Shown here: piece by piece, positions 25,934 through 47,354 of the stretch | Numbering within the stretch: the stretch's first letter is position 1 | How the letters are laid out: each line of letters begins with the position of its first letter | IMG/VR virus record: IMGVR_UViG_3300050821_015552 | Span: 15,811-79,810 of that record | Origin: a virus | DNA: 64,000 bases | Strand: one strand, 5' to 3' | Notes under the pieces: model-generated | What the model saw: the letters and a program-made list of their open reading frames with translations, nothing else | Database searches by the model: none | What the model was told of the DNA's origin: nothing | Made by a program: the position numbers and the translations under genes

Positions 25934-25936
25934 TCC

Positions 25937-28016: not shown

Positions 28017-28022
28017 TCCACC

Positions 28023-29287: not shown

Positions 29288-29289
29288 AT

Positions 29290-30054: not shown

Positions 30055-30056
30055 CG

Positions 30057-31873: not shown

Positions 31874-31875
31874 TT

Positions 31876-31911
31876 TTCGCGCCCTGACGAGGCGGTGGTA
31901 CGCTGCTCCTC
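31876..31911 (+). promoter_or_regulatory. Leaderless promoter
   Basis: TTCGCG-N17-TACGCT-N7-GTG; same TTTTCGCGC -35 context at 15984. Confidence 0.6.
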
Positions 31912-33147
31912 GTGGCCGACTCGCCTACCATCGCGTCCGACATCGCCGCGGGCGTGAAGGTCGACCATCGGCCCTGGCCCGGCACCAAGCCGGGCTTGCG
32001 GATCACCCGTGAGCAGATGGCCAAGAAGATCCGCGAGGGCATGCACACACCCAGCGTGCGCGCCCTCGCCGGGCAGATCCTGCGCGACGCGGGCTTCCCG
32101 ACGACGATCCGCGCGAAAGCCGAGGCCCTGCGCAGCTACGTGAAGAAGAACGTCGGCTACGCGCCTGACCCGATATTTTCGGAGATGGTCGTCGCGGCGC
32201 CTGTGACTCTTTGTTTGGACGATGGGATCATGTGCATGCCCATTGGAGATTGCGACGACGCCACCGTGGCGTGCCAGTCGCTCATCGGCGCGGCCGGCAT
32301 GGACGCGCGGTTCTTCCACATCGACTACGGCTCCGGCGTGCAGACGCACATGATGGGTGCCGTACGCGATGAGACGGGCAAGTGGCTCGAGGTCGACGCG
32401 ACGACCGATCGCCCGGTCGGCTACGAGACCAGCTGCACGCGCAAGGTGCTGGTCGATCCGTTCGACGACAAGACCTTCGATCTGATGGGCGCCGCAGGGG
32501 GCAGTTTCATCGGCGTGGGCAAGGCTTTTGTCGGCGCGGGCAAAGCGTGGGATGCTCTCCCCATGCACGGCTACGCCTCAGCCATCCTCGGCCGCTCGGT
32601 CGGCGCTGGGGCTGCACTGCCGACGCTTCAGCCGTGCTACCAGTTCGTGCTCTACATCGATCTGCAGGGCGCGACCGCCGACGATCTGGTGGCCTCGTTT
32701 CCGTGGACCTCGTCGGTACAGAACCTCGCAGTGAACACGAACGAGACGCCCAACTCGGTGTCTGGTACGTGGATTGGCTCGTCGCCCCTTGCGGTGCCCG
32801 CGAGCATTCCTGTGGCGCACGACTTCGGTGGCAACACGGGGTATCAGACGGTGCAGGTGCTCGTCCAGAGCGGCATCATCGGCGCCAGGGACACGTCGGG
32901 AGCGTGCGCTCCGATTCAGATCCATCTTCCGCCGGGTCACACGAGCGGTGGCAACACGGGTGGCGCCCCGATCCACACGGGCAGCACTTACCATGGTGGA
33001 ACCGCCACAGGCGGCACGGGCGGCACGCAGTCCAGCACCGGCCTGTCGACGGGCGCCAAGGTCGGCCTCACGCTGGGCGCCGTCGCGCTGCTCGGTGGCG
33101 GCGCGTTCGCGGCGTACAAGGCCGGATGGTTCGGGAGAGCAGCATGA
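31912..33147 (+). CDS. Transglutaminase-like (papain-fold) enzyme fused in frame to a TM-anchored domain
   Basis: GDCDD (Cys), THMM (His), WLEVDAT (Asp) triad; C-terminal TM. Confidence 0.85.
   Translation: MADSPTIASDIAAGVKVDHRPWPGTKPGLRITREQMAKKIREGMHTPSVRALAGQILRDAGFPTTIRAKAEALRSYVKKNVGYAPDPIFSEMVVAAPVTLCLDDGIMCMPIGDCDDATVACQSLIGAAGMDARFFHIDYGSGVQTHMMGAVRDETGKWLEVDATTDRPVGYETSCTRKVLVDPFDDKTFDLMGAAGGSFIGVGKAFVGAGKAWDALPMHGYASAILGRSVGAGAALPTLQPCYQFVLYIDLQGATADDLVASFPWTSSVQNLAVNTNETPNSVSGTWIGSSPLAVPASIPVAHDFGGNTGYQTVQVLVQSGIIGARDTSGACAPIQIHLPPGHTSGGNTGGAPIHTGSTYHGGTATGGTGGTQSSTGLSTGAKVGLTLGAVALLGGGAFAAYKAGWFGRAA
32563..33147 (+). CDS. Possible nested in-frame gene (194 aa membrane protein MHGYASAILGRSVGAG...)
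   Basis: TTGTCG-N17-GATGCT-N6-ATG inside the transglutaminase-like ORF. Confidence 0.5.
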   Translation: MHGYASAILGRSVGAGAALPTLQPCYQFVLYIDLQGATADDLVASFPWTSSVQNLAVNTNETPNSVSGTWIGSSPLAVPASIPVAHDFGGNTGYQTVQVLVQSGIIGARDTSGACAPIQIHLPPGHTSGGNTGGAPIHTGSTYHGGTATGGTGGTQSSTGLSTGAKVGLTLGAVALLGGGAFAAYKAGWFGRAA

Positions 33148-33842
33148 CCAGCCTCGAGAAAGCGTTGGCGTGGGGCCTCGGGATCGTGACGACTGGGCTC
33201 GTCATCCTCGGCATCTACGAGGAGACCAAGAGCAAGCCGGCCAACTCGAACACCGTCACGACGACCCTCACCCCCGGCCACCGCTACAGCTTCCAGGCTT
33301 CCTGCCCGACCGCGTTCCCCGCGCTGCCGCCCGCCGGGTCGACGACCGCTGTAGCGGCGCTGCTCGGCCTGACCGGTGTCTCGATCCTGACCTACCTGCC
33401 CGCCGCCGACGGCAAGAGCTTCACGGTCACGTTCGACTACACGGGGCTCGCGATGACGCTGCCGCCTATTCAGTCGGGCGGCGCGACGTCGTGCACCTCG
33501 CAGCTGGTCGATCTGGGCGTCTCGCCTAGCACGGGCGGCACGCAGCAGGGTGGTGTCGCCAGTCAAGGGGGCCTCAATCTCGTCAACCAGGGGCAGCTGC
33601 CCGCCGCCCAGAACCTCGACCTGACGTCCGGCTCCACGGGCGTCGCCCACGCCACGACCAATGGCGCACTACAGGTCATCGCGCCGTGGAGCATCGCAAG
33701 CGTTTCGCCCTCGCCCGCCTACCAGGGCGCCGCGGCGATCTCGGGCAACACCGCACGCATGGTGCTGACGGGAACGCCCGCGCTCTTCGACATCACTGGG
33801 CCGCCGCCGGCCTCGCCGATCGTCACGGTGAGGGTGCAGTGA
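33144..33842 (+). CDS. Putative virion membrane protein, N-anchor paralogous to 29326
   Basis: MTSLEKALAWGLG...KSKP. Confidence 0.75.
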   Translation: MTSLEKALAWGLGIVTTGLVILGIYEETKSKPANSNTVTTTLTPGHRYSFQASCPTAFPALPPAGSTTAVAALLGLTGVSILTYLPAADGKSFTVTFDYTGLAMTLPPIQSGGATSCTSQLVDLGVSPSTGGTQQGGVASQGGLNLVNQGQLPAAQNLDLTSGSTGVAHATTNGALQVIAPWSIASVSPSPAYQGAAAISGNTARMVLTGTPALFDITGPPPASPIVTVRVQ

Positions 33843-34642
33843 GCTACGAGCGGGCCATCTACGGAGCGGGCGCCGCCTCCCCCGGCGACGTCCTGTCGTA
33901 CCGCGCGCTGTGGGACGACTACGTGCTGCAGACGGTGTGCGCCTACAACGCGCTCGCTTGGGCCCTGGGCTTTCTCATCCAGGGCCAGTCCCCTCCGAAC
34001 ACCATCGACGTTACGGCGACCGGGATCGCCGGCATCCCCTACTGCGTGCGGACGATCCCGACGTGGAACTACCAGCTGCCGCTGGTCGACACGACGCAGT
34101 TCGGAGACAACCCGCCCACGGTGGCGGAGCTGACGAGCGTGCAGACCGCCGCGATCGGTTCAGCATCGGCGCTGCTCGACAGATGGAACGTGTGGAGCGG
34201 CCTGTCCGACTACGAGATCGTGCAGGACGCGGCGCAGATCCTCACGTCCATGCAGGGCGTCGTCAGCGACACGGGCAACACCGAGCGTCCCTACCTGTCC
34301 AAGTACAGCCCCGCGCTCGGCGCGGCGATCGTGCAGGGCCCCAGCCAGAGCAAGCAGGCGCAGATCATCGCGCAGCTCGAGGGCGCCAAGATCGTGGCGG
34401 GCGGAGTGCTAACCGTCTTCGGCTTCGGCCTGCAGGGAGCCATCGACTCCACCGCGACTCTTGGCCAGTGGACCGCGCAGCACGTCAAGGATCTCGGGGA
34501 GGGCGCGACGGGTCTGGCGGCCTTCCTGCTCAACCCGTGGACCATCGGCATCGCGGCGGTGCTCATCGTGGGCGGCGCCGGGCTCGCCGTCTACAACGCC
34601 GAGAAGGTGGCGAAACTCACTGCGGCTTTCAGGCCGATTTAG
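33839..34642 (+). CDS. Putative virion membrane protein starting MSYERAIYGAG, C-terminal TM
   Basis: GTGA coupling; helical body; WTIGIAAVLIVGGAGL. Confidence 0.75.
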   Translation: MSYERAIYGAGAASPGDVLSYRALWDDYVLQTVCAYNALAWALGFLIQGQSPPNTIDVTATGIAGIPYCVRTIPTWNYQLPLVDTTQFGDNPPTVAELTSVQTAAIGSASALLDRWNVWSGLSDYEIVQDAAQILTSMQGVVSDTGNTERPYLSKYSPALGAAIVQGPSQSKQAQIIAQLEGAKIVAGGVLTVFGFGLQGAIDSTATLGQWTAQHVKDLGEGATGLAAFLLNPWTIGIAAVLIVGGAGLAVYNAEKVAKLTAAFRPI

Positions 34643-34651
34643 GAGCAGCAA

Positions 34652-34894
34652 ATGAACGATCGACTTCTGGGCGCTGGCGTCGTCAGCAGCAAGACCATCA
34701 GCAACACGAGCATCGCGGCCCTGGGGCTCGAGACCGCGGGGGCAGCCGGCGTCGTCGTCGGAGGTGCAACGCTCGCCTTCGGCGGCAGTCCGAGGGCGGC
34801 GGGGATCGCGGCGGTCATCGGTGCGGTGCTCGGCGGGGCGTTCGGCAGCTGGCTGGGCTACGAGATCAAGGCGAGCTTCCCTAGCGCGCCCTGA
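34652..34894 (+). CDS. Small glycine-zipper membrane protein
   Basis: AGGAG RBS; LLGAG; GxxxG TMs. Confidence 0.7.
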   Translation: MNDRLLGAGVVSSKTISNTSIAALGLETAGAAGVVVGGATLAFGGSPRAAGIAAVIGAVLGGAFGSWLGYEIKASFPSAP

Positions 34895-34931
34895 ATTTGC
34901 ACGTCGGGCCGTTCTGTAGGACTCTGGAGCC

Positions 34932-35306
34932 ATGAGCCCAGCAGGGAACGTCGCGGCGGCTTCAGGGTTGGGCGCGGCTGGCGGCGCGTTCGCCGGGTTC
35001 ATGCTCGCCTTCGTCGGCGGCAAGATCGCTGGCGCCGGACCGAAGCATGCCGGGATCGCGGCGCTTCTCGGAACGGTTGTCGGAGCGGTCATCGGCGCAG
35101 CCTCCGTCGGCGCTTACGAGGAGAAGCGCGTGCTGGGCGCCGGCAAGACTGCCGTCGACAAGGCCATCGGCGCGGGCGCCTTCTCGTTCCTGGCGGACGG
35201 CGACTACCCGATCCCCGATCCGTTCCACCACGGCTGCACGATCACCCTGCACTGCACGACCGTCAACGGCAAGCAGGTCTGCACCTCGACGTCGAGCTGC
35301 CCGTGA
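34932..35306 (+). CDS. Glycine-zipper membrane protein with Cys tail
   Basis: TTGCAC-N17-GACTCT-N6-ATG; two GAG motifs. Confidence 0.7.
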   Translation: MSPAGNVAAASGLGAAGGAFAGFMLAFVGGKIAGAGPKHAGIAALLGTVVGAVIGAASVGAYEEKRVLGAGKTAVDKAIGAGAFSFLADGDYPIPDPFHHGCTITLHCTTVNGKQVCTSTSSCP

Positions 35307-36641: not shown

Positions 36642-38066
36642 ATGGCCTCGAAGAAGCGTAAGAAGGCGAAGAAGAAGACGGGCCGAAAAGGTCGCCGTGG
36701 CGCCTCGCGCAAGACCGAGAAGAAGACGCGCAAGCGCAAGGCTCGCAAGTCGAGCAAGAGAAGCAGGGCTGCACGCAAGGCTGCGAGAACGCGGATGGCC
36801 AAGAAGGAGGCGCGCCGCGCCGCCGCTCGGAAGGCTGCGCGATCGCGCAAGCGCAAGGGCGGCGGCAAGCGCAAGGCTCGCAAGTCTGGCAAGCGCAAGA
36901 GCGCGAAGCGTTCCGCGGCGGCCCGCAAGGGCGCCAGGACGCGCAAGGCACGCAAGAGCGGCAAGACCCGTCGGCGCGCGCGTCGCGCGTCCCCCGAGCG
37001 CATCTACAAGAAGGCGCTGGTCGAGGGCAACCGCCACGAGCGCGCCGCCTCGCGACTGCGCACGCAGTACGAGAAGGCCCTGAAGGCCAACAAGAACCGC
37101 TCGGCCGCGCAGGTCGAGAAGCTGCGCAAGCAGCAGGAGCGCCTCAAGGCCCGCCTGCAGTACCACGAGGGCATGGCGGCCGAAGCGCGCAAGCGCAAGG
37201 GCAAGCGTCGCGGCGGCAAGCGTCGCGAGCGCAACCCCATCGGCTCCGGCGGCATGCAGGAGTACGCGGCCGTCGGCGGCGGCGTGCTCACGGCCATCGC
37301 GCTGACCATCGGCCCCTACCGGATGATCCGCAGCCACGCGCTCGGCTCCGGCGGCGGCCAGGGCAACGTCGACGCTCCCGTGCAGGGCGACGTCCCGAAC
37401 CTGCTGACCGGGCAGCTGCCGCTCTGGTCGCGCCTCAAGTGGAAGGGCGCCATCGCCCTCGGTGTCGTGCTCGTCGGCGACATCGCGCTGCCCCTCTTCG
37501 TCGCCTCGCGCATCAAGACGAGCGACGGCTGGAAGACCTTCTTCCAACTCTGGGGCTGGACGTCGGTGGCGCTCGCCAGCACCAAGCTGGTGGTCGACAC
37601 GCTGGCGCTGGCGACCAAGAGCACCTCGCTCGGCCAGCGCCTCTTCGCCCCCGAGAACACGGCGCGCGACGTGCGCACGATGAGCGCTGCCACTAAGCTG
37701 CCGCCCATCACCGTCGCCCCGGGCGTCGGTCTGCCGGGTCTGACCGGCTACGGCAGCCCGCCTCCCGATCCGAAGCGCCACACGGGCGCGGCTGGATGCG
37801 GCTGCAGCGCGTGCGAGGCCCAGCGCAAGCAGGCCAACCCGAACCAGCCGGGCACCCACCAGCCGATCACGGGCACCACGCCGATGCCGGCGCAGCCCGG
37901 AGCGGTGCAGCCTCCCGGCGGCAACCCGCTCAACTCGAACACCGTCGTGACCGGCCTGCCCGGCAACGGCGTGACCGCTCCCACGGGCGCCGGCAGCGTG
38001 ACGCCCATCAACAAGTTCGCCCCGAAGCCCCGCTTCGACGGCAAGAGCCGATTCGGCACCCGGTAA
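36642..38066 (+). CDS. Arg/Lys-rich histone/protamine-like domain fused to a multi-TM domain (putative core / membrane-DNA linker)
   Basis: GGAG RBS; about 190 aa extremely K/R-rich N-terminus; about 3 hydrophobic segments; directly upstream of the capsid candidates. Confidence 0.8.
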   Translation: MASKKRKKAKKKTGRKGRRGASRKTEKKTRKRKARKSSKRSRAARKAARTRMAKKEARRAAARKAARSRKRKGGGKRKARKSGKRKSAKRSAAARKGARTRKARKSGKTRRRARRASPERIYKKALVEGNRHERAASRLRTQYEKALKANKNRSAAQVEKLRKQQERLKARLQYHEGMAAEARKRKGKRRGGKRRERNPIGSGGMQEYAAVGGGVLTAIALTIGPYRMIRSHALGSGGGQGNVDAPVQGDVPNLLTGQLPLWSRLKWKGAIALGVVLVGDIALPLFVASRIKTSDGWKTFFQLWGWTSVALASTKLVVDTLALATKSTSLGQRLFAPENTARDVRTMSAATKLPPITVAPGVGLPGLTGYGSPPPDPKRHTGAAGCGCSACEAQRKQANPNQPGTHQPITGTTPMPAQPGAVQPPGGNPLNSNTVVTGLPGNGVTAPTGAGSVTPINKFAPKPRFDGKSRFGTR

Positions 38067-38149
38067 CCCTCTTTTTCGCGGCGCCGCACGGCGCTCCGCG
38101 AGCCCGCGATTCCCCCCCATCCCAAGCAACGCAGGAGCGACAGACGATC

Positions 38150-39517
38150 ATGGCCAAGTATTCGAAGACCGACGAAGGCAGGAAGTCCCACAGCCGCACC
38201 CTGGACGAGCGCAGCGGCGCGATGCTCGACAGGTTCGTCGACGACCGGGTCCGGCGCTCCGAAGGGGCGATCGGGGGTCGTCATCTCGGCGCCGGCAAGG
38301 CCTGCGATGATCCCTCGCAGATCGCCGCCTCCATCGTCGATGGCCTCAATTGCGGCATCGAGGATCTCGAGGTCGTGGCCGAAAACCGCGCCTTCTTCGA
38401 GGGGCCGCTGACCCCGGCGCAGGCCGGAAACTTCTTCCTTCCGCAGGTCAACCCCTTCGGCATCGGCACCGCGCAGGGCGCCGTGGACCAGGCGCAGATC
38501 AACATCGACGGCAGCGAGATGGACTGCAACGTCCTCATCACGCACGTCTACTTCCACATGGTGCCGCCCAAGCACACCATGACGGTCGAAGGCGGCTACT
38601 GGTCCCCGTCGCCCACCGCCGCCGGCAACGGGCCGGTCGTGCCGGACGCATGGTCGAACGTCGACCAGGCGACCGACGGCACGGGCACCCTGGGCCTGGG
38701 CGCCGGTCAGACCCTGACCAAGGCTTCGCTCGACACGGGCGAGTGGGCCTGCGACTTCTTCTACGACTTCTGCCGCGCCTACGAGTGGATCTGGAAGATC
38801 GGCAACAACATCCTGATGGAGGCGCCGCTCACCAAGATCGCCTCCATCCGCGGCGCCTCGCAGCCGTGGACCAGCGGTCAGCACCTCAAGCCCTTCGCCC
38901 AGGACGTCGCCGACGCCAACGCGTTTTTCCGCGCCAACGGTGCCAATGGCATCTTCATGCCGCGCAACGCCACGCGCGACGGCTCGGCCAACATCACCAG
39001 CGGCAAGGCCAACTCGAGCTACTTCTCGCCCTACGGCTACTTCCGCGAGCAGGCCACCATCGGTGGCCCCGGCGTGCAGGAGCTGTGCATGAACCCCACG
39101 GTCTACGAGCTGTGCACCGCGCAGCTCTTCCCCCGCGGCGTCAAGCTCGGCATGCACTTCGACCTGATCGACGAGTACGCGCAGGCGCGCTCGGCACGTT
39201 CGGCGACCATGAACCAGCTGACCGGCGGCGGCGGGATCGGCCAGATCAACCCGGACGTCAACGTCACGGGGATCGGCTCGGGCGTCGCGCCCGTGTTCAC
39301 CGAGCTCACCCAGGCGGCGGCGGACGTGCTCATCCAGGAGCCCGTCGGCCGGGTGCTCTGCAAGATCGGCGACTTCTACCTCGTCGCTGGCCTGATGGGT
39401 CACCGCGTCAGTCAGACGCTCTACAGCAAGATCATCGCCAACGAGTCGGCGGTGTGCGACGCGGTCACGGCGGGCACCTTCGGCCGCCGGTCGCTGTCGA
39501 TGATGGCGAGCAAGTAA
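38150..39517 (+). CDS. Putative large major capsid protein (jelly-roll-like)
   Basis: AGGAG RBS, strongly biased codons, beta-strand pattern NVLITHVYF / WKIGNNILMEAPL / YELCTAQLFPRGVKLGMHF / FYLVAGLMG. Confidence 0.6.
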   Translation: MAKYSKTDEGRKSHSRTLDERSGAMLDRFVDDRVRRSEGAIGGRHLGAGKACDDPSQIAASIVDGLNCGIEDLEVVAENRAFFEGPLTPAQAGNFFLPQVNPFGIGTAQGAVDQAQINIDGSEMDCNVLITHVYFHMVPPKHTMTVEGGYWSPSPTAAGNGPVVPDAWSNVDQATDGTGTLGLGAGQTLTKASLDTGEWACDFFYDFCRAYEWIWKIGNNILMEAPLTKIASIRGASQPWTSGQHLKPFAQDVADANAFFRANGANGIFMPRNATRDGSANITSGKANSSYFSPYGYFREQATIGGPGVQELCMNPTVYELCTAQLFPRGVKLGMHFDLIDEYAQARSARSATMNQLTGGGGIGQINPDVNVTGIGSGVAPVFTELTQAAADVLIQEPVGRVLCKIGDFYLVAGLMGHRVSQTLYSKIIANESAVCDAVTAGTFGRRSLSMMASK

Positions 39518-39589
39518 CCGGGCAGCCACGCGCAGGCGGGGCGGCGCCCTCGGCCGCCCGCTGCATCCACCCCCTGACCGGAGACTGCC

Positions 39590-40189
39590 ATGGGCGCCTA
39601 CGTCGTCGATCCGTACATCCAATGGCTGCTCATGAAGAGTCCCGCGCTGGCCTACGGCGTGGTGCTCTACGGACCGCTGGTCCCGTACCCGTTCACGATC
39701 ACGGCCGCCTTCACGGCCGCCGGCAGCCCGTCGCCGATCCTGAACCAAGTGAGCGGCGACGATCCTCTCGACCGGGACATCCTCATCCCGGCCATCGACG
39801 TCGACATCCAGACCAAGGACTTCAACACGGCGAGCATCTTCAAGCCGGAAGCGGACCTGGCCTACGATGAGACGTCGGGCCTGCAGGTGACGATCACCCA
39901 GCGCGGCGCCTTCGGCAAGCAGTACGACCAGATCCCGCTCAAGGCCGTTCCCAAGACGGTCTCGCGCCTCGATCCGATGTGTCTGCTCGAGGAGCAGAAG
40001 CTCCTGATGTCGTTCTTCGTCACGACGCCCCTGCCGAGCGACAGCACGGTGGTCACCGTGACGATGCTGGGCCTCACGTCCCAGAAGGACGCCGTCTTCC
40101 GGATGGACACCAACGTCATTTTCGACAAGCTCGAGGCGCTCGGCTATTGGGTCGACCAGGCTCGGTGCTTCTGGCTGAGCGCGAACTAG
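39590..40189 (+). CDS. Putative small capsid protein (single jelly-roll-like)
   Basis: GGAG RBS; DRDILIPAIDV / LQVTIT / PMCLLEEQKLLMSF / VVTVTMLG. Confidence 0.55.
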   Translation: MGAYVVDPYIQWLLMKSPALAYGVVLYGPLVPYPFTITAAFTAAGSPSPILNQVSGDDPLDRDILIPAIDVDIQTKDFNTASIFKPEADLAYDETSGLQVTITQRGAFGKQYDQIPLKAVPKTVSRLDPMCLLEEQKLLMSFFVTTPLPSDSTVVTVTMLGLTSQKDAVFRMDTNVIFDKLEALGYWVDQARCFWLSAN

Positions 40190-40196
40190 GAGCGCT

Positions 40197-41132
40197 ATGG
40201 GCGCCGCCCTCGCCGAGCATCGAACCCGCCAGCGAGTCTCCTCGCGCGGCTTCGATCCGCTCCTGGGCGGCATCGGCCTGCTGGGCAACCCGAGCGCCGA
40301 TCTGCTCGCCGCCGGCCTGCGCGTGCCGTACCAGTACACCGGAGCCTTCCGGTCGACGGTGCCCGGCGGGGGCCTCGTGCAGCGCTACCTTTTTCAGCTC
40401 TGCTCCATCGGCATCGGCTCGGGGCTGTGGTTGACCGATCTCGGGCAAATGTCGGTGCTGGGCAGCGAGCAGATGTCTGGCACGACGGGCGGCGACGCGC
40501 CCTCGCCGACCAACCCCATCTTCCCCAACGTCATCGAGCAGACCTCGGCGGCCTTCCGCTTTGCCGACTGCCATCCCATTCGCTGGGGCGTACGCCGGGT
40601 GCACAAGCCTCGCGCCCTGCTCAGTGGTCAGGATCCGCTGTCCACGAGCAGCTTCTCCCGCGGCTGGACCGACAACTCGGGCCTGATCTTCGAGACAGCG
40701 GCGTTTCCGAAGGCCAACCTCGACTGGAAGGGCACGCCGGACAACTATCTCACCCTGGCTGGCTACACCGCCCCCGGCGGGGGCGGGATCTTCCCGGGTG
40801 AGCCGGTCGGCGGGGAGCTCGGGTGCTTCGACTCGCTCGACTTCCGCCAGAACGATCCGAATCGGCGCGCCTTCGAGCCTGTGTGGGTCAAGCCCGGCGG
40901 GCAGCTGGTCTTCTACGCGCTCGTGGACCAGACCAACCCGTCCAGCCGCGCGGTCATCCAGGTGCTCGCGCAGTTCCCGCTGCCGACGACAGGCATGCCC
41001 GAGAACGCGTTCATCGGCGACTGGCCCGCGACCATCCAGTTCGCCGTCGGCGGCAGCATGACCGTCGAGATGCGCGAATCGGATGGCGGACCCATCCCCC
41101 GCAGGCGCTACTTCACGGGGGCGCCGTCATGA
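40197..41132 (+). CDS. Putative virion protein (penton / minor capsid candidate)
   Basis: AGGAG RBS; beta-rich with PVWVKPGGQLVFY. Confidence 0.6.
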   Translation: MGAALAEHRTRQRVSSRGFDPLLGGIGLLGNPSADLLAAGLRVPYQYTGAFRSTVPGGGLVQRYLFQLCSIGIGSGLWLTDLGQMSVLGSEQMSGTTGGDAPSPTNPIFPNVIEQTSAAFRFADCHPIRWGVRRVHKPRALLSGQDPLSTSSFSRGWTDNSGLIFETAAFPKANLDWKGTPDNYLTLAGYTAPGGGGIFPGEPVGGELGCFDSLDFRQNDPNRRAFEPVWVKPGGQLVFYALVDQTNPSSRAVIQVLAQFPLPTTGMPENAFIGDWPATIQFAVGGSMTVEMRESDGGPIPRRRYFTGAPS

Positions 41133-41452
41133 GCTTCTCCACCGTCACCTGCGCCTACACGATCAACGCGTCCGGACAGATGACGCCCGCGCAGCTCGCG
41201 GCGTCCATGGCTGCGGCCGACATCCCCATCCCCGTGGAGTTCCTCGAGCTGACGGGCGCCACGGTCACCAGCGACACGACGGCCGCGGGCGCGACCTCGG
41301 CGGCGCGCACGGTCGTCTTCAACATCACCGCGGCGCAGTTCCAGTCGCAGTTCCCCGACGATCCGCTCGGGCCGTTCTGGGGGCTTCTGACGCTGCCCAT
41401 CGCGGAGTACGTCAACGCGCCCGTGCTCGAAGCCTTGCCGGTGGCGGCCTGA
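41129..41452 (+). CDS. Putative virion protein
   Basis: ATGA coupling. Confidence 0.65.
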   Translation: MSFSTVTCAYTINASGQMTPAQLAASMAAADIPIPVEFLELTGATVTSDTTAAGATSAARTVVFNITAAQFQSQFPDDPLGPFWGLLTLPIAEYVNAPVLEALPVAA

Positions 41453-41454
41453 TC

Positions 41455-42039
41455 ATGGACAAGTCGACCAAGGTTGTAATCGGTATCGGTGGGGGCGTCG
41501 TGGCCGCCGTCGTCGTGGCTGCGATCTTCGAGCACTACGCGCACGCTTCGCCGTCACCCCCCGCCCCCGGCACGCTCCTCTGCCCGGACGGCACTCCCGC
41601 GCCCGGCGGCGTCATCACCAACTGCCCTCCGCCGGCCCCCGGCCAGAACCCCTACTCGCCGCCGGGCGGCTGGGTGTACTCGGGCAACCCCACGACCGAC
41701 TACCTGCCGAGCGCTCACCTGCTCCTGCAGGTGGACCCCTGCGCCTGCTCGAGCGTGGGTCTGGTGCGTCGCTTCCAGGCCGCTGCGGGCCTGGTGCAGT
41801 CCGGGCAGTCCGACGGCCGCTACGGACCCGACGTCGCCGAAGCGTTGGCGAACGCGATCCAGGACATGGCGTCGCAGGGCTACAACGTCAGCGGCCTGTC
41901 CGCCCCGGTGGCGTGCGAGACGAGCAACGCGCCGCGCCCCTCCTGGTGGGGCCCCACGAACACGGCGTGGCCGGCGAGCGGCCCCAACCCCTACGAGAAT
42001 CCCAACTGCCCCGGCGATCCAGGGCCGACGTACGCGTGA
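41455..42039 (+). CDS. N-anchored membrane protein with peptidoglycan-binding-like domain
   Basis: TM; VRRFQAAAGL...DGRYGPDVAEAL. Confidence 0.72.
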   Translation: MDKSTKVVIGIGGGVVAAVVVAAIFEHYAHASPSPPAPGTLLCPDGTPAPGGVITNCPPPAPGQNPYSPPGGWVYSGNPTTDYLPSAHLLLQVDPCACSSVGLVRRFQAAAGLVQSGQSDGRYGPDVAEALANAIQDMASQGYNVSGLSAPVACETSNAPRPSWWGPTNTAWPASGPNPYENPNCPGDPGPTYA

Positions 42040-42049
42040 GGAGACGACG

Positions 42050-42412
42050 ATGAACTGGACAGCACTCTCAGGTGGACTCGTCGGCGCCCTCGCAGGCGCC
42101 CTGGCTGGCGGTGGCATCGCCTACGCAGCGACCGACGAGGGCAAGCACGCGACGCCCACGCTGGTCGCTGGCGCGCTCGGTGGCGCGGTGGTGGGCCTCG
42201 GCGGAGCGATGCTCGGCAAGAAGGCCAAGTACAACCGTTGGAACGCGGCCAACCAGGCGTGCCCCGCGGGCCAGGTCGCCGACTACGGGACGCTGCAGTG
42301 CGTGGCTGCGTGCCCGGACGACAGCATCCCCACCAACGGCGCGTGCACGGGCCTGGTCCCGAGTTCGAGCCTGTTCGGCGCGGGCGGGGCGCCCGAGCGG
42401 CTGGCGGGGTGA
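42050..42412 (+). CDS. Glycine-zipper membrane protein with Cys-rich module
   Basis: GAGGAG RBS; CPAGQ...C...CPDD...C; LFGAG. Confidence 0.7.
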   Translation: MNWTALSGGLVGALAGALAGGGIAYAATDEGKHATPTLVAGALGGAVVGLGGAMLGKKAKYNRWNAANQACPAGQVADYGTLQCVAACPDDSIPTNGACTGLVPSSSLFGAGGAPERLAG

Positions 42413-42424
42413 TAGAAGGAAGCC

Positions 42425-42976
42425 ATGGAAACCGAAGACAAGAGCGAGCCGCAGGAGCAGCGGCAGGTCGGTGCTGGCGCAACGCTTCCGGGCACCGCCG
42501 AGGCGCAGGCGCTGGTGGCGGCCTACCCGGCCGGCGGCTGCACCAACCCGCTGACGGGCGGGGCGTTCTACGACACCGTCAAGGCCTTCAAGGTCGCCTA
42601 CAACATCGGCATCAACCTGGGCGACACCTCGGGGCCCAACGGCGACGGTCCCTCGACGACGGCCGGCTACCTGCAGCACAACGGCGACTACGACCAGGCG
42701 ACGGCGGACGCAGTCACTGCGGCCCTGGGGTCGGCGCCGGCACCGTGCGCGGCGAGCGGCGGAGGGGGCGGCGGCAATGTGACGCCTCCGGCCAACAACA
42801 ACGTGCCGGCGACCACGGGCGGAATGAGCGGGTGGGTGAAGGCGATCCTATGGGTGATCGCTCTCGCGGGTGCCGTCGGCCTGGGCCTCTGGCTCTGGAA
42901 GACGTTCGGCAGCTCGAGGCCGATGGCGGCGGAGAGCAAGAAGAAGCGCGGCAAGAGGACAGGTAGAAAGCGTTAA
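42425..42976 (+). CDS. PG-binding-like protein with C-terminal TM and basic tail
   Basis: VGAG at aa 15-18; VKAFKVAYN...GDYDQATADA; TM; KKKRGKR. Confidence 0.72.
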   Translation: METEDKSEPQEQRQVGAGATLPGTAEAQALVAAYPAGGCTNPLTGGAFYDTVKAFKVAYNIGINLGDTSGPNGDGPSTTAGYLQHNGDYDQATADAVTAALGSAPAPCAASGGGGGGNVTPPANNNVPATTGGMSGWVKAILWVIALAGAVGLGLWLWKTFGSSRPMAAESKKKRGKRTGRKR

Positions 42977-43000: not shown

Positions 43001-44893
43001 GTGGACGACTACCAGAACGGGCTGCCACGTCAGCGCAGGGGCCCAGGCCCCCAGCAGCGCGCACAGCGTGTCCAGCAGCGCAAGGAGTTCGAAGCGTCGC
43101 GCCCAGGCCCGCCCACGCCGCACATCGCCCGCTTGACGGCGATGATCCATGAGCTCGAGGTCCCAGAGGACGTCAAGCTCGTGGCCGGCGCCCACGCCTT
43201 CAACCCCTCGGTGTGCGTCTTCAAGGGCGAGTTGCGGGTGGCGATCCGCCTCTGGGCTCGCGACGTGCCACACTACGCGATCGGTCGCATCGACGAGCAA
43301 TGGCGCCTGGTGGGGGCCCGAACGATGCACGGCGGGCAGTTCGAAGACCTGCGACTGTTCGATCTCGGTGGCAAGCTCGGCGCAACCGCCACGGTGGTGG
43401 AGCCGCAGTCGACGCGGGTAGCCGTCTTGGAGCTCAACGACCACGGCGACGTCGTCTCGTCGCGCGCGCAGCCGTCGAGCCATGCCGAGAAGAACTGGAT
43501 GCCGGCGGTGACCGGGGAGGACCACCTGCGGATCGTCTACAGGACGCAGCCGCCTGTCATCATGGACTACGCCGACGGAAAGGTGTGGCCCAGCCCACCG
43601 GACACGGCCGACTACCAACTCCACGGCGCGATGCGGGGCGGCAGTCAACTCCTGCCGTTCGAGGACGGATGGATCGCGGTCGTTCACGAGCGCCTGGAGG
43701 GCAGCCTCTACGCCCATCGCTTCGTGCGCTTCTCGCAGGATCTGTCGCGCGTGTCGGCCGGTCCCCAGTTTGTCTTCGAGCACGTCGGGATCGAGTTCGC
43801 CTGCGGCCTGGCCCAGTGGCGTGGGCGATGGATCGTCTCGTTCGGCTCCGAGGACCGGCGCGCACGGATTGCCGTGCTGACGAGCGACGAGCTCGCAGCC
43901 TGGCTACCCGGTAAGCCGTCCACTGCCCTGGCGAAGGGTCGGCGCGTACTGGTCTGCCACAGCTCGCTCGAGCGGTGCGGCGTGCGCGAGTACGGCCGGC
44001 AGCTCGACGCGTCCCTCGTCAAGGCGGGAACCAACCTCTTGCCGTTCACCTACGGCAACGTCCAGGCGATACCCCAGGTCTGCTCAGCCGGCGACACCCT
44101 GCTCGTCCACTACGAGCCGCAACTGTTGCCGCCCGATTTCCTCCATACGCTGGGCGAAATCAAGAAGCGCGGTACCCGCATCGTTCTGTGCTGCCACTGG
44201 TACTCGGAAGGCGCCTTGCGCGATCTGCGTCCCCTGGTGGACGAGGTTGTGGTGCACCGCAGCTACCCCGACGCGGGCCGCGCGACCGTGATCCCGCTGG
44301 GCTGCCCCGTATACGAGCCGGGAGACCGGGAGGCACTCCGCAGGCGCCTGGGCCTGTCAGGTGTGGTCGTCACGACGATAGGTCTCTTGGCAGGGTGGAA
44401 GCGCATCCCCGAGACGGTGGCGGCCATCGCGCGTCAGGCGCCTGCAGGAGTGACGATCGTAGTGCAGACGCCCCCACCGTCACCGAACTCGGGCGAAGAG
44501 GACCGCTTGCGGTCGGCCATCGCTCCGTTCGGTGACAAGGCCCGCCTGTCCACGCGCTTCCTGCCCGAGACCGATCTACTGGATCTGGTGCACGCCTCGG
44601 ACGTGGGCTTCGTGTTTCACGGCGTCCACACCCAGAGCGTTTCGGCCGCGACCAAACAGTTCGTCTCGGCGAGAACGCCGCTGGTCACCACCAGCTCCAC
44701 GCACTCCTCCGATCTGAACGGCGTCCACCGCGTCGACTCGTTCGATCCAGATGTCTTCGCCCGCGAGGTACTCCGGGTGGCCGCAGACGCGCCACTGTGC
44801 GAACGAATGCGAGGGGAAATGGCCGCCGAGTACACGCGACTGAACATGGACGCGGTTGCGGCCCACTACATGGGGGTGCTGTGGTGCAAGTGA
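43001..44893 (+). CDS. Beta-propeller glycosidase-like domain fused to GT-B (GT4-like) glycosyltransferase
   Basis: FNPSV, EDLRLF, EKNWMP, RGGSQ, IEFACGL; CGVREY, WKRI, ASDV. Confidence 0.8.
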   Translation: MDDYQNGLPRQRRGPGPQQRAQRVQQRKEFEASRPGPPTPHIARLTAMIHELEVPEDVKLVAGAHAFNPSVCVFKGELRVAIRLWARDVPHYAIGRIDEQWRLVGARTMHGGQFEDLRLFDLGGKLGATATVVEPQSTRVAVLELNDHGDVVSSRAQPSSHAEKNWMPAVTGEDHLRIVYRTQPPVIMDYADGKVWPSPPDTADYQLHGAMRGGSQLLPFEDGWIAVVHERLEGSLYAHRFVRFSQDLSRVSAGPQFVFEHVGIEFACGLAQWRGRWIVSFGSEDRRARIAVLTSDELAAWLPGKPSTALAKGRRVLVCHSSLERCGVREYGRQLDASLVKAGTNLLPFTYGNVQAIPQVCSAGDTLLVHYEPQLLPPDFLHTLGEIKKRGTRIVLCCHWYSEGALRDLRPLVDEVVVHRSYPDAGRATVIPLGCPVYEPGDREALRRRLGLSGVVVTTIGLLAGWKRIPETVAAIARQAPAGVTIVVQTPPPSPNSGEEDRLRSAIAPFGDKARLSTRFLPETDLLDLVHASDVGFVFHGVHTQSVSAATKQFVSARTPLVTTSSTHSSDLNGVHRVDSFDPDVFAREVLRVAADAPLCERMRGEMAAEYTRLNMDAVAAHYMGVLWCK

Positions 44894-45702
44894 CCATCGG
44901 CATTCCGACCCTCAACGGCCCCGACAGGCTCTTTCGCTGCCTGCGTTCGATCGGTCAGCACACCTCGTGGGGCTCATGCGGCGACGTCAAGGTGCTCGTC
45001 GTCGATGACGGCTCGACTGAAGAGCTGCTCAAGACGAACAAGGACATGGTGCACATCGCCAGCGGCCTGTACCCGCAGATGGGCCTCGAGATGCTCATGC
45101 ACAACGAGCGGCGCGGCATCGCAAGAGGGTGGAACGCGCTCACGCGTCACCGCGGCAGCGAGGTCGTGGCGCTCATGAACGACGACATCGAAGTGGTCGA
45201 CGACTGGCTCGATGTGCTCGTCTATTCCGTCACGAAGAACGGGCATGCCGGCATGGTGGGGCTCAACTCGTACGTCGGCGTGACCAAGGCCTCCGTGCCG
45301 TTCCCGCCACCGCGCGTCGACTACTGCGAGGGCAGGCTCCTGGGCGGCGGCAGCAACGGCCTGGTGTCGTCACAGGGCCCGCTCTTCGCGTTCCGGCGCG
45401 AAATGTTCGATCGCGTCGGCGGGTTCGACGAGCGCTACTTCTGCTTCTACGAGGAGGTCGACTTCGGGATCGCGCTCAGGCAGGCCGGCTTCCACCACTA
45501 CATGGCCGACTACCCGCGCGTGTTCCACATGGGCGGAGCGACCAACTCGAAGCCCGAAAACCTGGACGCGGCCAAGCACATGGCCGAGAGCGCGGAGAAG
45601 TTCCGGCAGAAGTGGGGTGCGACGCTCGGCGATCTGCGGGCGGGATTTGGACCGTCGCCCGGGTGCGACGAGTGGAACACGCAGATCAAGAACTGGAGAT
45701 GA
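44884..45702 (+). CDS. GT2 glycosyltransferase
   Basis: IGIPTLN, VVDDGS, MNDD, GGFDERY, YEEVD. Confidence 0.9.
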   Translation: MQVTIGIPTLNGPDRLFRCLRSIGQHTSWGSCGDVKVLVVDDGSTEELLKTNKDMVHIASGLYPQMGLEMLMHNERRGIARGWNALTRHRGSEVVALMNDDIEVVDDWLDVLVYSVTKNGHAGMVGLNSYVGVTKASVPFPPPRVDYCEGRLLGGGSNGLVSSQGPLFAFRREMFDRVGGFDERYFCFYEEVDFGIALRQAGFHHYMADYPRVFHMGGATNSKPENLDAAKHMAESAEKFRQKWGATLGDLRAGFGPSPGCDEWNTQIKNWR

Positions 45703-46421
45703 CGTCTGTGGAGTTTTCGATCTGCATCCCGACCTATCGGGGCGCCGCGCGCCTGGCGCGATTGTTCGAATCGCTGCCCAGAAATCTTGACGCCGAGGTG
45801 CTCGTCTGGGACGACGGCTCGCCGCCACAAGACGCAAGCGCGATCGAGCGGGTCGTCCCGGCAAACGCTCAGGTACGCCACTCGCTCCGTAACCGAGGTG
45901 CCGTCGCTGCGCTCGAGGAGATGGCGAGCCTAGCGGCTGGCCGGTTCATCCTGCAGCTTGATGACGACGTGCGCTTGCCGCCCGGGTTCTTCGAGGCGGC
46001 CAGGCAACTGCTGGCACTGCCGAACATCGGCGTCCTGTCGTGGCGCAGCTGCGGCATCGACGAGGACCGGCCAGGCGTCGCCGGTTTGCTCGAGCCGGCG
46101 ACGGAGCTGGCTGGCTACTGCATGGCCTATCCGACCGAGCTGCGCGACGCGATCGGCGGCATCGACACCCGCTACAAGATGTACTGCTCCGACAGCGACT
46201 TCACACTGCGGGCCATGATGTCGGGGCGGCCATGTTACCGCGTGGGCTGGCCGCTCGTACCGCACGAGGAGCACGGCGTCTACAAAGACCCCGACAACGA
46301 GGGCCTTCGCCGAACGCGTGACGAGGTAGCCCCGCTCGACATGAAGGCGTTTGTCGACAAGTGGGGTGCGGACGGTCAAGAGATGCAGCGGCGCGCCATC
46401 GCGCGTCTGATGGGGGCCTGA
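45699..46421 (+). CDS. GT2 glycosyltransferase
   Basis: ICIPTY, VWDDGS, LDDD, GGIDTRY. Confidence 0.88.
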   Translation: MTSVEFSICIPTYRGAARLARLFESLPRNLDAEVLVWDDGSPPQDASAIERVVPANAQVRHSLRNRGAVAALEEMASLAAGRFILQLDDDVRLPPGFFEAARQLLALPNIGVLSWRSCGIDEDRPGVAGLLEPATELAGYCMAYPTELRDAIGGIDTRYKMYCSDSDFTLRAMMSGRPCYRVGWPLVPHEEHGVYKDPDNEGLRRTRDEVAPLDMKAFVDKWGADGQEMQRRAIARLMGA

Positions 46422-46422
46422 C

Positions 46423-47352
46423 ATGCCGCGGATCGTGATTGGTGTGCCGACGTACAACGGGGCCGAGCGCCTCGGCTGGCTGCTCAAGTCGATGGCGATG
46501 CGAACGCCCATGCTGGCGACCGGCGACGTGCGGATCGTCGTGGTCGACGACGGCTCGCCGATGGTCGGCGCAACCGTTTCGGCCTACCGCATGTGGGAGG
46601 CGCAGCTACCCATCGATCTCGTCCAGCACGGCGGCAACCGTGGCATCTCGGCCGGGTGGAACACAGCGGCGCGGCACCACGACTGCGAGTACGTGGTGCC
46701 CATCAACGACGACGTCATCGTGCCGAGCGGCGGATGGCTCGAGTCGCTCATTCACACGCTCGAGCATTCGCCGGGCGTCGGCGTGGTCGGCGCCAGCTGG
46801 CATGCGTTTACGCCCGAGGACGCGCCGGCCCTGCTCGCGGGGCCCGAGTCGGACAGGGACGTCATTCCGCGTGAGCCTCGCAACGAGCACGGCCTGGTGC
46901 GCCAGAACGCGGCTCGCCGAACCCAGTACGAGGACGTGTGGCCTGGACGCGTCATGTGTCCGACCGGAGAGCTGTTCGCGTTCCGCAGGAAAGACTTCGA
47001 CCGCATCGGCGGCTTCGATGAGAACTACAAGTCGTTCTACGAGGAGAGCGACTTCGGCACGAGCATGGCCGCTGCCGGCCTGATAGGCGTGCAGCTCACG
47101 TGGCCGTTTTGCTACCACCTGTGGAGCGCCACATTCGGGGCGAGCCCAGAGCTGCGCGCGGATGAGCGGATGACGGCGTCGCGCGCGTACTACCGACGCA
47201 AGTGGGCCGTGCCCGACGGCGTCGCCGAGTTCGACTTCACCAACCCGAAGTTCTTCGGCGCCATCGGCGATGTGCCCGTCGAGTTTCTACGCAAGTCGGG
47301 GCCGTGCAAGGGTGTGCTCCGGCAAGACGGCGCATTCGTCGAGGGGGTTTGA
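46423..47352 (+). CDS. GT2 glycosyltransferase (paralogue of 44884)
   Basis: IGVPTYN, VVDDGS, INDD, GGFDENY, YEESD. Confidence 0.9.
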   Translation: MPRIVIGVPTYNGAERLGWLLKSMAMRTPMLATGDVRIVVVDDGSPMVGATVSAYRMWEAQLPIDLVQHGGNRGISAGWNTAARHHDCEYVVPINDDVIVPSGGWLESLIHTLEHSPGVGVVGASWHAFTPEDAPALLAGPESDRDVIPREPRNEHGLVRQNAARRTQYEDVWPGRVMCPTGELFAFRRKDFDRIGGFDENYKSFYEESDFGTSMAAAGLIGVQLTWPFCYHLWSATFGASPELRADERMTASRAYYRRKWAVPDGVAEFDFTNPKFFGAIGDVPVEFLRKSGPCKGVLRQDGAFVEGV

Positions 47353-47354
47353 CC

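What the first reader, a model, noticed from the sequence alone, without database searches (positions are those of the whole stretch)
36642..41132. Large tailless membrane-containing virus with two adjacent jelly-roll capsid candidates
Seen: about 30 kb of structural-like genes with no terminase, portal, HK97 capsid, tape measure or baseplate, but more than 20 TM proteins. Genes 38150 (455 aa) and 39590 (199 aa) are adjacent, have strong RBSs, and show alternating beta-strand patterns ending in '...P-x-hydrophobic...hydrophobic-x-hydrophobic-x-L/M-G'. Established: P23-77 and SH1-like viruses use a large plus a small single-jelly-roll MCP and an internal membrane, and the characterised ones have much smaller genomes without PolA. 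Inference: a lineage of at least 64 kb with its own PolA replisome and glycosylation island, probably infecting myxobacteria.
Basis: partly seen in the sequence, partly recalled or inferred. Interest (0 to 1): 0.82.

Follow-up and report, generated by a model that had tools for sequence, protein, structure and literature searches.

The report
Large tailless soil virus, jelly-roll capsid candidates
A complete 80-kb virus-like genome from soil has no tail, portal, terminase or any other DNA-packaging motor, but carries a conserved gene block whose small protein is predicted to fold like the jelly-roll coat proteins of membrane-containing tailless viruses; if confirmed it would be by far the largest virus of that kind in prokaryotes.

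Summary
The window is part of a closed 79.8-kb record with 97-bp direct terminal repeats, so the check for head-tail genes covered the whole genome. No terminase, portal, HK97 capsid or tail module was found. No FtsK/HerA packaging ATPase was found either. The only P-loops belong to two replication helicases.

Supporting context:
- The 474/455/199/311-aa block keeps its gene order in relatives.
- About 18-20 late proteins have transmembrane segments.
- The 474-aa protein is protamine-like and membrane-anchored.
- A hydrophobic-G-A-G motif is about 15-fold enriched in this module and marks the end of the 455-aa protein's variable N-arm.

The element works like SPV1 or SH1/P23-77-type viruses but is not a demonstrable member of either group. 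The host is unknown, and nothing supports myxobacteria. The same scan noted this idea before, on this same genome only.

The parts
36642..38066 (+). 474-aa protein, pI 12. It has a Lys/Arg/Ala-rich protamine-like N-terminal arm of about 200 aa, hydrophobic TM helices at about residues 215-325, and a Pro-rich C-terminus. It is a candidate membrane-anchored genome-condensing protein.
   Evidence: Translation. pI and TM scan. No Pfam or PHROG match. 45-55% identical and in the same position in L002 and L003. The ESM Atlas gave nothing usable. The function is inferred from composition only.
38150..39517 (+). 455-aa candidate large capsid protein precursor. It has a variable, disordered N-arm (residues 1-49) that ends in L-G-A-G, followed by a conserved beta-sandwich body with long insertions and C-terminal helices.
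39590..40189 (+). 199-aa candidate small single-jelly-roll capsid protein: two N-terminal helices, an eight-strand beta-sandwich, and C-terminal helices.
40197..41132 (+). 311-aa conserved third protein of the block. Fold not tested. It could be a vertex (penton) or further shell protein.
   Evidence: Family of 27 proteins at 46-85% identity on the same contigs as the other two. Syntenic in L002 and L003 at 70-74% identity. No profile similarity to the 455- or 199-aa families or to PDB sequences. The nearest ESM Atlas clusters are all viral jelly-roll coat families, but scores are 0.85 or lower, so this is only a lead.
41129..42976 (+). Four small proteins (107, 194, 120 and 183 aa). Three have one TM helix, and the last has a Lys/Arg-rich C-terminus. 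They are candidate virion membrane proteins.
   Evidence: Gene call and TM scan. The 107-, 194- and 183-aa genes are syntenic in L002/L003. No family hits.
22881..35306 (+). Upstream part of the late module: a 516-aa ORFan, a GT2-like protein, about ten proteins bearing TM helices, a transglutaminase-like (Cys-protease-fold) protein with a C-terminal TM helix (31912-33147), and interspersed homing endonucleases (GIY-YIG at 24947-25933, EndoVII at 28023-28712).
   Evidence: Transglut_core scores 20.5 bits, below the 23-bit cut-off. The [LIVFMY]GAG motif occurs 16 times in 22881-42976 against 3 times in the rest of the genome.
43001..57127 (+). Glycan synthesis island directly after the structural block: a 630-aa ORFan, three GT2 enzymes, a GT1-like enzyme, two methyltransferases, a B12-binding radical SAM enzyme (- strand), a LamG-like protein (- strand), an NAD-dependent epimerase/reductase and GDP-mannose 4,6-dehydratase.
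   Evidence: Pfam hits.
14024..15983 (+). Cell-wall enzymes: an M23 peptidase with a hydrophobic C-terminus (14024-14566), and a 245-aa TM-anchored protein (15246-15983) that matches the enzymatic end of phage baseplate-hub PHROGs.
   Evidence: PF01551, E 7e-15. (phrog_196, E 1.3e-5, covering only profile positions 445-526)..
62921..63622 (+). Rv2525c-like glycoside-hydrolase-like protein, a candidate lysin.
   Evidence: PF08924, E 7.6e-11. No tblastn match in cultured phages.

Best explanation
The interval 36642-41132 is the core of the particle-forming module of a new lineage of tailless, probably membrane-containing dsDNA viruses of soil bacteria, with a genome of about 80 kb.

Proposed roles:
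- The 199-aa protein is a single-jelly-roll shell protein.
- The 455-aa protein is a second, larger jelly-roll shell protein. It is made as a precursor, and its variable 49-residue N-arm is removed at a hydrophobic-G-A-G site.
- The 311-aa protein is a further conserved shell or vertex component.
- The 474-aa protein is a membrane-anchored, protamine-like protein that condenses the genome against a virus-encoded lipid layer. That layer is populated by about 15 small TM proteins encoded around the block.
- Because the complete genome has no packaging NTPase, the DNA is probably enclosed by co-assembly or condensation, as in SPV1, rather than pumped into a preformed shell.
- The adjacent glycan island probably decorates virion proteins.

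Shown here: the genes and their conservation and gene order; the predicted jelly-roll fold of the 199-aa protein; absence of terminase, FtsK and HerA; the motif enrichment; the TM-protein enrichment.

Inferred: capsid function, internal membrane, proteolytic maturation, the packaging mode, and glycosylation of the virion.
For: 1. The genome is complete, so absences count. The record has a 97-bp terminal direct repeat. Relatives sit on contigs of 60-94 kb.

2. There is no head-tail module and no packaging motor. Pfam and PHROGs scans of all large proteins found none. Six-frame searches with PF03237, PF03354, PF01580 and PF01935 found nothing, with working controls. The only GK[ST] P-loops are in the VapE and DEAD helicases.

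3. The 199-aa model is confident and is a jelly-roll. Foldseek's best hits are viral coat proteins, led by the SPV1 MCP at E 4.5e-4 and prob 1.0. A Foldseek-independent search ranks capsid jelly-rolls of EhV, PBCV-1, D13, hexon, phiCjT23, Faustovirus, HHIV-2 and SPV1 among its top 14 rows.

5. The 455/199/311 trio is the most conserved part of a syntenic block: 70-81% identity against 45-59% for the flanks. The 455- and 199-aa genes have the 2nd and 3rd highest GC3 in the genome.

6. About 18-20 late proteins carry TM segments, interleaved with the block.

7. [LIVFMY]GAG occurs 16 times in the module against 3 times elsewhere. Fisher p is 1.6e-7, and 0 of 5000 shuffles reach 16. In the 455-aa family the site is kept exactly at the border between the variable N-arm and the conserved body.

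8. Virus-type accessory genes are present: M23 peptidase, a GH-like lysin, four homing endonucleases, a split PolA and prim-pol/VapE.

9. RNA-library contigs from three soil studies match the 455- and 199-aa genes with 0-2 mismatches. This is only a weak hint of expression.
Against: - The 455-aa model is mediocre (pLDDT 61). It has no Foldseek hit below E 0.01 in the PDB, and none below 0.25 in BFVD.
- The three proteins have no sequence or profile link to any known capsid protein or to each other.
- No virus with an icosahedral shell enclosing 80 kb of dsDNA is known to lack a packaging NTPase.
- CheckV rates completeness at 57%.
- Four large ORFans (817, 630, 516 and 419 aa) and the 311-aa protein were not folded, so another capsid fold elsewhere is not excluded.
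- No particle, lipid or proteome data exist.
Confidence: 0.55

Rival explanations
1. It is a non-viral mobile element: a large plasmid or integrative element, or a vesicle-spread element. Its TM-rich module and glycan island would build a cell-surface or membrane-vesicle structure. The jelly-roll proteins would be surface, lectin or fibre subunits rather than a capsid.
For: - Three tyrosine recombinases.
- No packaging NTPase of any kind.
- Cellular jelly-rolls (TasA, Ena, FlhE, GOLD, PHM, BclA/C1q) score as well as capsid proteins.
- A large glycan island.
Against: - No conjugation ATPase or Walker-type partition ATPase, since there is no P-loop at all.
- No relatives on 72,556 plasmids and none in 185,579 species genomes.
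- Four homing endonucleases, a split PolA, lysin-type enzymes and terminal repeats are typical of viruses.
- A processing-site-like motif is shared by module proteins.
- Foldseek's top hits for the 199-aa model are almost all coat proteins.
Confidence: 0.2
2. It is an enveloped or pleomorphic virus without an icosahedral shell. The jelly-roll proteins would be spike, fusion or matrix components, and the basic 474-aa protein would be the nucleoprotein.
For: - No packaging motor.
- Many TM proteins.
- A protamine-like membrane protein.
- Jelly-roll knobs are common in spikes and fibres: PRD1 P5, the phage 7-7-1 fibre and the Sf6 knob all appear in the hit lists.
Against: - The 199- and 455-aa proteins have no TM segment or signal peptide.
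- Their best and longest matches are shell proteins, SPV1 VP4 above all, not spikes.
- Their high conservation and codon bias fit an abundant shell protein better than a receptor-binding protein, which usually varies.
Confidence: 0.15
3. It is a highly divergent tailed phage. Its terminase, portal, HK97 capsid and tail proteins would be unrecognisable by sequence, and the jelly-roll proteins would be decoration or fibre proteins.
For: - Replication genes and phrog_1735 are shared with tailed phages.
- Weak PHROG hits to baseplate hub and tape measure.
- Several large ORFans were not folded.
- Hit lists include a cyanophage Pam1 capsid chain (7eel_H) and a phage tail-fibre chain.
Against: - No P-loop exists that could belong to a large terminase in any of the six frames.
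- PF03237 and PF03354 are absent, with working controls.
- No PHROG structural family matched any of the roughly 40 late proteins scanned.
- The hub hit covers only an enzymatic end domain. The tape-measure hits (E 0.004-0.04) fall on a TM-rich stretch.
- A run of about 18 TM proteins is atypical for a head-tail module.
Confidence: 0.07

Closest known systems
[quoted passage not shown]
   Same: - The SPV1 coat protein (PDB 6oj0) is the best Foldseek hit for the 199-aa model and the best VIA hit for the 455-aa model. For the 199-aa model VIA gives it the longest alignment (144 of 178 residues) but ranks it only 9th-14th.
- SPV1 also lacks a genome-packaging ATPase (PMC8812541).
- From my own knowledge, SPV1 encloses a condensed nucleoprotein core inside a lipid layer under the shell. 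That parallels the protamine-like membrane protein found here.
   Different: - From my own knowledge, SPV1 infects a hyperthermophilic archaeon and has a genome of about 20 kb.
- This genome is about 80 kb. A bacterial host is likely (M23 peptidase, tRNA-Arg(ACG), Shine-Dalgarno sites). It carries its own PolA replication module.
SH1/HHIV-2/HCIV-1 and P23-77-type viruses (Helvetiavirae: Simuloviridae, Sphaerolipoviridae, Matshushitaviridae)
   Same: - Two adjacent coat genes of unequal size with jelly-roll folds, and many small membrane proteins.
   Different: - Those viruses encode an FtsK-HerA packaging ATPase (PMC8812541). None is present here.
- From my own knowledge, their genomes are 16-31 kb and lack PolA.
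- No profile similarity to their coat proteins was found.
Prokaryotic double-jelly-roll viruses (PRD1, PM2, FLiP, STIV) and large eukaryotic relatives (PBCV-1)
   Same: - FLiP also lacks a packaging ATPase (PMC8812541).
- From my own knowledge, PBCV-1 encodes GDP-mannose dehydratase and its own glycosyltransferases for its coat protein.
   Different: - No double jelly-roll was seen. The 455-aa model aligns as one sandwich with insertions, over 100-145 residues.
- Prokaryotic DJR viruses have genomes under 20 kb (PMC8812541).
Adenovirus, poxvirus and ASFV virion maturation sites
   Same: From my own knowledge, these viruses cleave virion precursors at short Gly-rich sites: (M/I/L)-x-G-G|x or (M/I/L)-x-G-x|G in adenovirus, A-G|x in poxviruses, and G-G|x in ASFV. 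The hydrophobic-G-A-G motif shared by the module proteins here resembles these sites.
   Different: - Cleavage is not shown here.
- Those proteases are Ulp1-like (clan CE). The only candidate here is a weak transglutaminase-like match, which scores below the Pfam cut-off.

Membership tests
Helvetiavirae / Halopanivirales (SH1-, P23-77-like) | Two single-jelly-roll major capsid proteins encoded side by side | tested here: inconclusive
   [not shown]
Helvetiavirae / Halopanivirales (SH1-, P23-77-like) | FtsK-HerA superfamily genome-packaging ATPase (PMC8812541) | tested here: not met
   PF01580 and PF01935 six-frame searches of the complete genome gave 0 candidates, while all 14 control genomes gave hits. 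No P-loop exists outside the two replication helicases.
Helvetiavirae / Halopanivirales (SH1-, P23-77-like) | Sequence or profile similarity to their coat proteins (VP4/VP7, VP16/VP17) | tested here: not met
   Profiles A1, A2 and A3 against all PDB sequences, which include the SH1, HHIV-2, HCIV-1 and P23-77 chains, gave no match at E up to 10.
Helvetiavirae / Halopanivirales (SH1-, P23-77-like) | Internal lipid membrane under the protein shell | not testable with these tools
   The only evidence is indirect: about 18-20 late proteins with TM segments.
Portogloboviridae (SPV1) | Jelly-roll coat protein structurally like SPV1 VP4 | tested here: inconclusive
   [not shown]
Portogloboviridae (SPV1) | No genome-packaging ATPase (PMC8812541) | tested here: met
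Portogloboviridae (SPV1) | Archaeal (Sulfolobales) host and a small genome of about 20 kb | tested here: not met
   The genome is 79.7 kb. M23 peptidase, Shine-Dalgarno sites and tRNA-Arg(ACG) point to a bacterial host. That last step is an inference.
Caudoviricetes (tailed phages) | Large terminase (P-loop ATPase plus nuclease) | tested here: not met
   PF03237 and PF03354 six-frame searches gave 0 candidates, with working controls. No PHROG or Pfam terminase hit in any protein. No spare P-loop.
Caudoviricetes (tailed phages) | HK97-fold capsid protein, portal, and tail tube/tape measure | tested here: inconclusive
   No Pfam or PHROG hit in any large protein. However, the 817-, 630-, 516- and 419-aa ORFans were not folded.
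Bamfordvirae (double-jelly-roll viruses) | [quoted passage not shown] | tested here: inconclusive
   [not shown]

The most novel reading that the evidence does not exclude
This is the first bacterial counterpart of the portoglobovirus-type architecture, scaled up fourfold. It would be a realm- or kingdom-level lineage of soil viruses with these features: a jelly-roll shell built from two unrelated-looking coat proteins laid over a lipid layer; 80 kb of dsDNA enclosed without any packaging motor, by a membrane-anchored protamine-like protein; virion proteins matured at a shared hydrophobic-G-A-G site; and virion proteins glycosylated by a virus-encoded pathway. That would make motor-independent encapsidation of a large dsDNA genome, and the pre-ATPase stage proposed for the origin of the Helvetiavirae, directly testable in bacteria.
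Probability: 0.3. Interest if true: 0.9.

Novelty: new variant of a known kind. Interest (0 to 1): 0.76.

Why it matters
Known prokaryotic tailless dsDNA viruses with jelly-roll shells are small. DJR viruses are under 20 kb (PMC8812541), and from my own knowledge the SH1-type viruses reach about 31 kb. An 80-kb member with its own PolA replication module and glycan pathway would extend that range several-fold.

It would also show that soil holds a lineage that sequence-based annotation cannot place: none of its late proteins matches a PHROG, and no relative was found in IMG/VR.

The complete lack of a packaging NTPase is the most unusual feature. If the particle is a closed shell, it raises the question of how 80 kb of DNA gets inside. 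It also bears on the published proposal that SJR-coat viruses began without a packaging ATPase.

The shared G-A-G motif offers a simple, testable maturation signal.

Tried and rejected
- Complex prediction of the 455- and 199-aa proteins gave no verdict (ipSAE 0.00). This is evidence neither for nor against binding.
- hhalign found no homology between the 455-, 199- and 311-aa families.
- Profiles A1, A2, A3 and A5 against PDB sequences gave nothing.
- Foldseek of the 455-aa model found nothing significant: best E 0.017 against the PDB and 0.25 against BFVD, with TM about 0.1.
- The ESM Atlas gave sub-threshold leads only. All nearest clusters for the 311-aa protein are viral coat families, but scores are 0.85 or lower. 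The 474-aa protein gave nothing.
- phmmer of the 516-, 630-, 817- and 419-aa ORFans against the PDB gave nothing.
- tblastn of the 455- and 199-aa proteins against 50,697 phage records and 72,556 plasmids gave no match.
- Related-loci results:
  - IMG/VR: none.
  - GTDB genomes: none.
  - JGI metagenomes: two short loci only.
  - The wide alignments A3 and A4 were too divergent to search with.
The 60-94-kb related contigs could not be fetched, so it is unknown whether relatives also lack an ATPase.
- Host inference failed. The nearest cultured-phage homologues of the primase-helicase and PolA are 25-37% identical and spread over many phyla. A 33-nt stretch of the tRNA-Arg has no exact match in GTDB representatives.
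- Promoter and terminator scans of 34.5-43.2 kb were not above shuffles.
- GC-rich hairpins in the intergenic regions after the 474- and 455-aa genes are no more stable than shuffled sequence (z +0.6 to +0.7).
- RNA-library contigs looked sparser outside 36.6-40.3 kb. The runs were chosen with this very stretch, and contigs cannot rank genes, so the sparse cover elsewhere is not used as evidence.
- A weak PHROG tape-measure hit for 33839-34642 (E 0.004-0.04) lies on a TM/Gly-rich stretch and is dismissed.

Full report
**What is there**

The window is bases 15811-79810 of a single-contig record of 79,810 bp. The first 97 bp of that record recur at its end, and IMG/VR classes it as a virus record with direct terminal repeats. 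The genome is therefore closed, at about 79.7 kb and 62-70% GC (mostly 65-69%). CheckV nonetheless estimates only 57% completeness.

A GC3-based gene call gives 125 genes.
- 36642-38066 (474 aa)
- 38150-39517 (455 aa)
- 39590-40189 (199 aa)
- 40197-41132 (311 aa)

All four have GGAG/AGGAG-type ribosome-binding sites.

**Genome context**

The left third of the genome is a replication and recombination module:
- three tyrosine recombinases
- a prim-pol/VapE primase-helicase
- a PD-(D/E)XK nuclease
- a DEAD-type helicase
- a family A polymerase in two ORFs, separated by a 199-aa ORF
- a Dam methylase
- a tRNA-Arg(ACG)
- a 531-aa protein of phrog_1735, which 535 tailed-phage records share

From window position 12.8 kb to 43 kb there is a run of mostly unannotatable genes. 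About 18-20 of them carry hydrophobic TM segments. Interspersed are an M23 peptidase, a second wall-enzyme-like protein, an 817-aa lipoprotein, a weak transglutaminase-like protein, two GIY-YIG endonucleases and one EndoVII endonuclease; the genome's second EndoVII gene lies in the replication module at 4006-4503.

Directly after the flagged block comes a glycan island: GT2 x3, a GT1-like enzyme, two methyltransferases, a B12-radical SAM enzyme, an epimerase/reductase and GDP-mannose 4,6-dehydratase. A GH-like lysin lies near the right end.

**Absences**

Because the genome is closed, absences carry weight.
- No Pfam or PHROG family for terminase, portal, HK97 capsid, tape measure, sheath, tube or baseplate matched any of the roughly 90 proteins scanned.
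- The only tail-labelled hits are to an enzymatic end domain of hub proteins (E 1.3e-5) and to a Gly/TM-rich stretch (E 0.004). Neither indicates a tail.
- Six-frame searches of the whole genome with Terminase_6N, TerL_ATPase, FtsK_SpoIIIE and DUF87/HerA gave no candidates, while the control genomes gave hits.
- A six-frame scan for GK[ST] P-loops found credible ones only in the VapE and DEAD helicases.

**The two candidate capsid proteins**

Both have small, metagenome-only families: 26 proteins for the 455-aa protein and 29 for the 199-aa protein, at 41-87% identity. They co-occur on the same contigs, which reach 94 kb.

The 199-aa protein:
- With its alignment it folds confidently (pLDDT 82.5, pTM 0.77) into two N-terminal helices, an eight-strand sandwich and C-terminal helices.
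- Foldseek against the PDB returns the SPV1 coat protein first (E 4.5e-4, prob 1.00, TM 0.42/0.45). Next come tymovirus, bromovirus, HHIV-2 and SH1 coats.

The 455-aa protein:
- It gives a mediocre model (pLDDT 61, pTM 0.62), with a disordered N-arm (residues 1-51) and several loose insertions.
- Foldseek finds nothing significant.

My reading: the jelly-roll fold is well supported for the 199-aa protein and plausible for the 455-aa protein. Capsid function is inferred.

**Further support from context**
- In two related metagenomic loci the order 474-455-199-311-107 aa is kept. The 455/199/311 trio is the most conserved part, at 70-81% identity against 45-59% for the flanks.
- The 455- and 199-aa genes have the 2nd and 3rd highest GC3 of the 59 larger genes.
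- Contigs from three soil RNA libraries of different studies match these two genes with 0-2 mismatches, and one contig bridges their intergenic region. DNA carry-over is not excluded, and the runs were selected with this stretch, so this is only a weak hint of expression.
- The 199-aa family extends to 77 clusters in a profile search of 1.8 billion proteins. None of the 66 members tested belongs to a PHROG.

First, the 474-aa protein has pI 12. It has a Lys/Arg/Ala-rich arm of about 200 residues, followed by hydrophobic helices and a Pro-rich tail. This is the composition expected of a membrane-anchored DNA-condensing protein.

- It occurs 16 times in the 27 proteins of window 22881-42976 and 3 times in the other 98 proteins. 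Fisher p is 1.6e-7, and 0 of 5000 shuffles reach 16.
- It mostly lies near N-termini.
- In the 455-aa family the N-arm varies in sequence and length, yet every full-length member keeps the motif immediately before the conserved body. A divergent branch has two copies.
- This is how a propeptide cleavage site looks. From my own knowledge it resembles the Gly-rich maturation sites of adenovirus, poxviruses and ASFV.
- The only candidate protease is a transglutaminase-like match that scores below the Pfam cut-off.

**How it most likely works**

The block encodes the shell and core of a tailless particle.
- Two jelly-roll proteins, plus a third conserved protein, form the shell. This is inferred.
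- The shell is laid over a lipid layer carrying about 15 viral TM proteins. This is inferred from the TM enrichment.
- The genome is condensed by the basic membrane protein rather than pumped in. This is inferred from the demonstrated absence of any packaging NTPase, and by analogy with SPV1.
- Several components are trimmed at the G-A-G site (inferred).
- Virion proteins may be glycosylated by the adjacent island (inferred).

I put this at about 0.55. The rivals are:
- a non-viral element that builds a surface or vesicle structure (0.2)
- an enveloped or pleomorphic virus in which these proteins are not a shell (0.15)
- a very divergent tailed phage (0.07)

**Comparison with known groups**

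The element resembles SPV1 in its best structural match, its lack of an ATPase and a condensed core. It resembles SH1/P23-77-type viruses in having two adjacent coat genes and many membrane proteins. It is not a demonstrable member of either group:
- The Helvetiavirae hallmark ATPase is absent.
- There is no sequence link to any solved coat protein.
- The genome is 2.5-4 times larger and carries a PolA replication module.
- The host is probably bacterial.

Literature searches found no description of such a lineage.

I class it as a new variant of a known kind, a jelly-roll-shelled, membrane-containing tailless virus. There is a real chance, about 0.3, that it is a deeper and more unusual lineage.

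**Limits**
- The host remains unknown, and nothing supports myxobacteria.
- Earlier notes of this scan on this same genome state the same idea. They are first-reader notes and not independent evidence.

Noticed in passing
window 22881-42976: The motif [LIVFMY]-G-A-G occurs 16 times in the 27 proteins of the late module and 3 times in the other 98 proteins (Fisher p 1.6e-7; 0 of 5000 shuffles reach 16). It usually lies within the first 20-50 residues. In the 455-aa family it marks the border between the variable N-arm and the conserved body. It is a candidate proteolytic maturation site.
   Followed up: partly
window 16930-16941 and 19420-19431; gene 16958-19411; recombinase 19459-20490: An exact 12-bp inverted repeat (CCTTGTCGATAG; 0 matches expected by chance) brackets the gene of an 817-aa lipoprotein with an L-V-A-C lipobox. 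A tyrosine recombinase gene lies next to it. This may be an invertible segment.
   Followed up: partly
window 4500-7035: The family A DNA polymerase is encoded as two ORFs (4500-5609 and 6205-7035), separated by a 199-aa ORF (5606-6205) that had no Pfam match at E 0.01 or lower. The genome also holds two GIY-YIG and two EndoVII-type homing endonuclease genes.
   Followed up: no
L001 3943-5538 (upstream of the window): A 531-aa protein matches phrog_1735 (E 1e-106, function unknown). It has 37-46% identical homologues in 535 tailed-phage records, including Salmonella, Klebsiella, Bacillus SP-15, Pseudomonas PaMx74-like and Rhizobium phages. It has no Pfam domain.
   Followed up: partly
L001 3812-3888: This is the single tRNA gene, tRNA-Arg(ACG). 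A 33-nt stretch of it has no exact match in 185,579 species-representative genomes.
   Followed up: partly
L001 293-1555 (-), L001 8733-9770 (+), window 19459-20490 (+): One 80-kb genome carries three tyrosine recombinase genes. No prophage relative of the capsid-candidate gene was found in any GTDB representative genome.
   Followed up: no
window 50646-52184 (-): A B12-binding radical SAM enzyme and a LamG-like protein are encoded on the opposite strand, inside the otherwise + strand glycan island, next to GDP-mannose dehydratase and an epimerase/reductase. This suggests an unusual methylated deoxy-sugar.
   Followed up: no
whole record (G000): CheckV completeness is given as 57%, although the record has 97-bp direct terminal repeats. 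A second assembly of the same element is 79,862 bp.
   Followed up: no
window 36607-40909: Contigs from three soil metatranscriptome libraries of different studies match the 474/455/199/311-aa genes with 0-2 mismatches. One contig (39438-39649) bridges the 455/199 intergenic region.
   Followed up: partly
window 57084-57746 (-): A 220-aa protein matches phrog_12600 (E 8.5e-62, function unknown). It is one of the few strong phage-family matches in the right arm.
   Followed up: no
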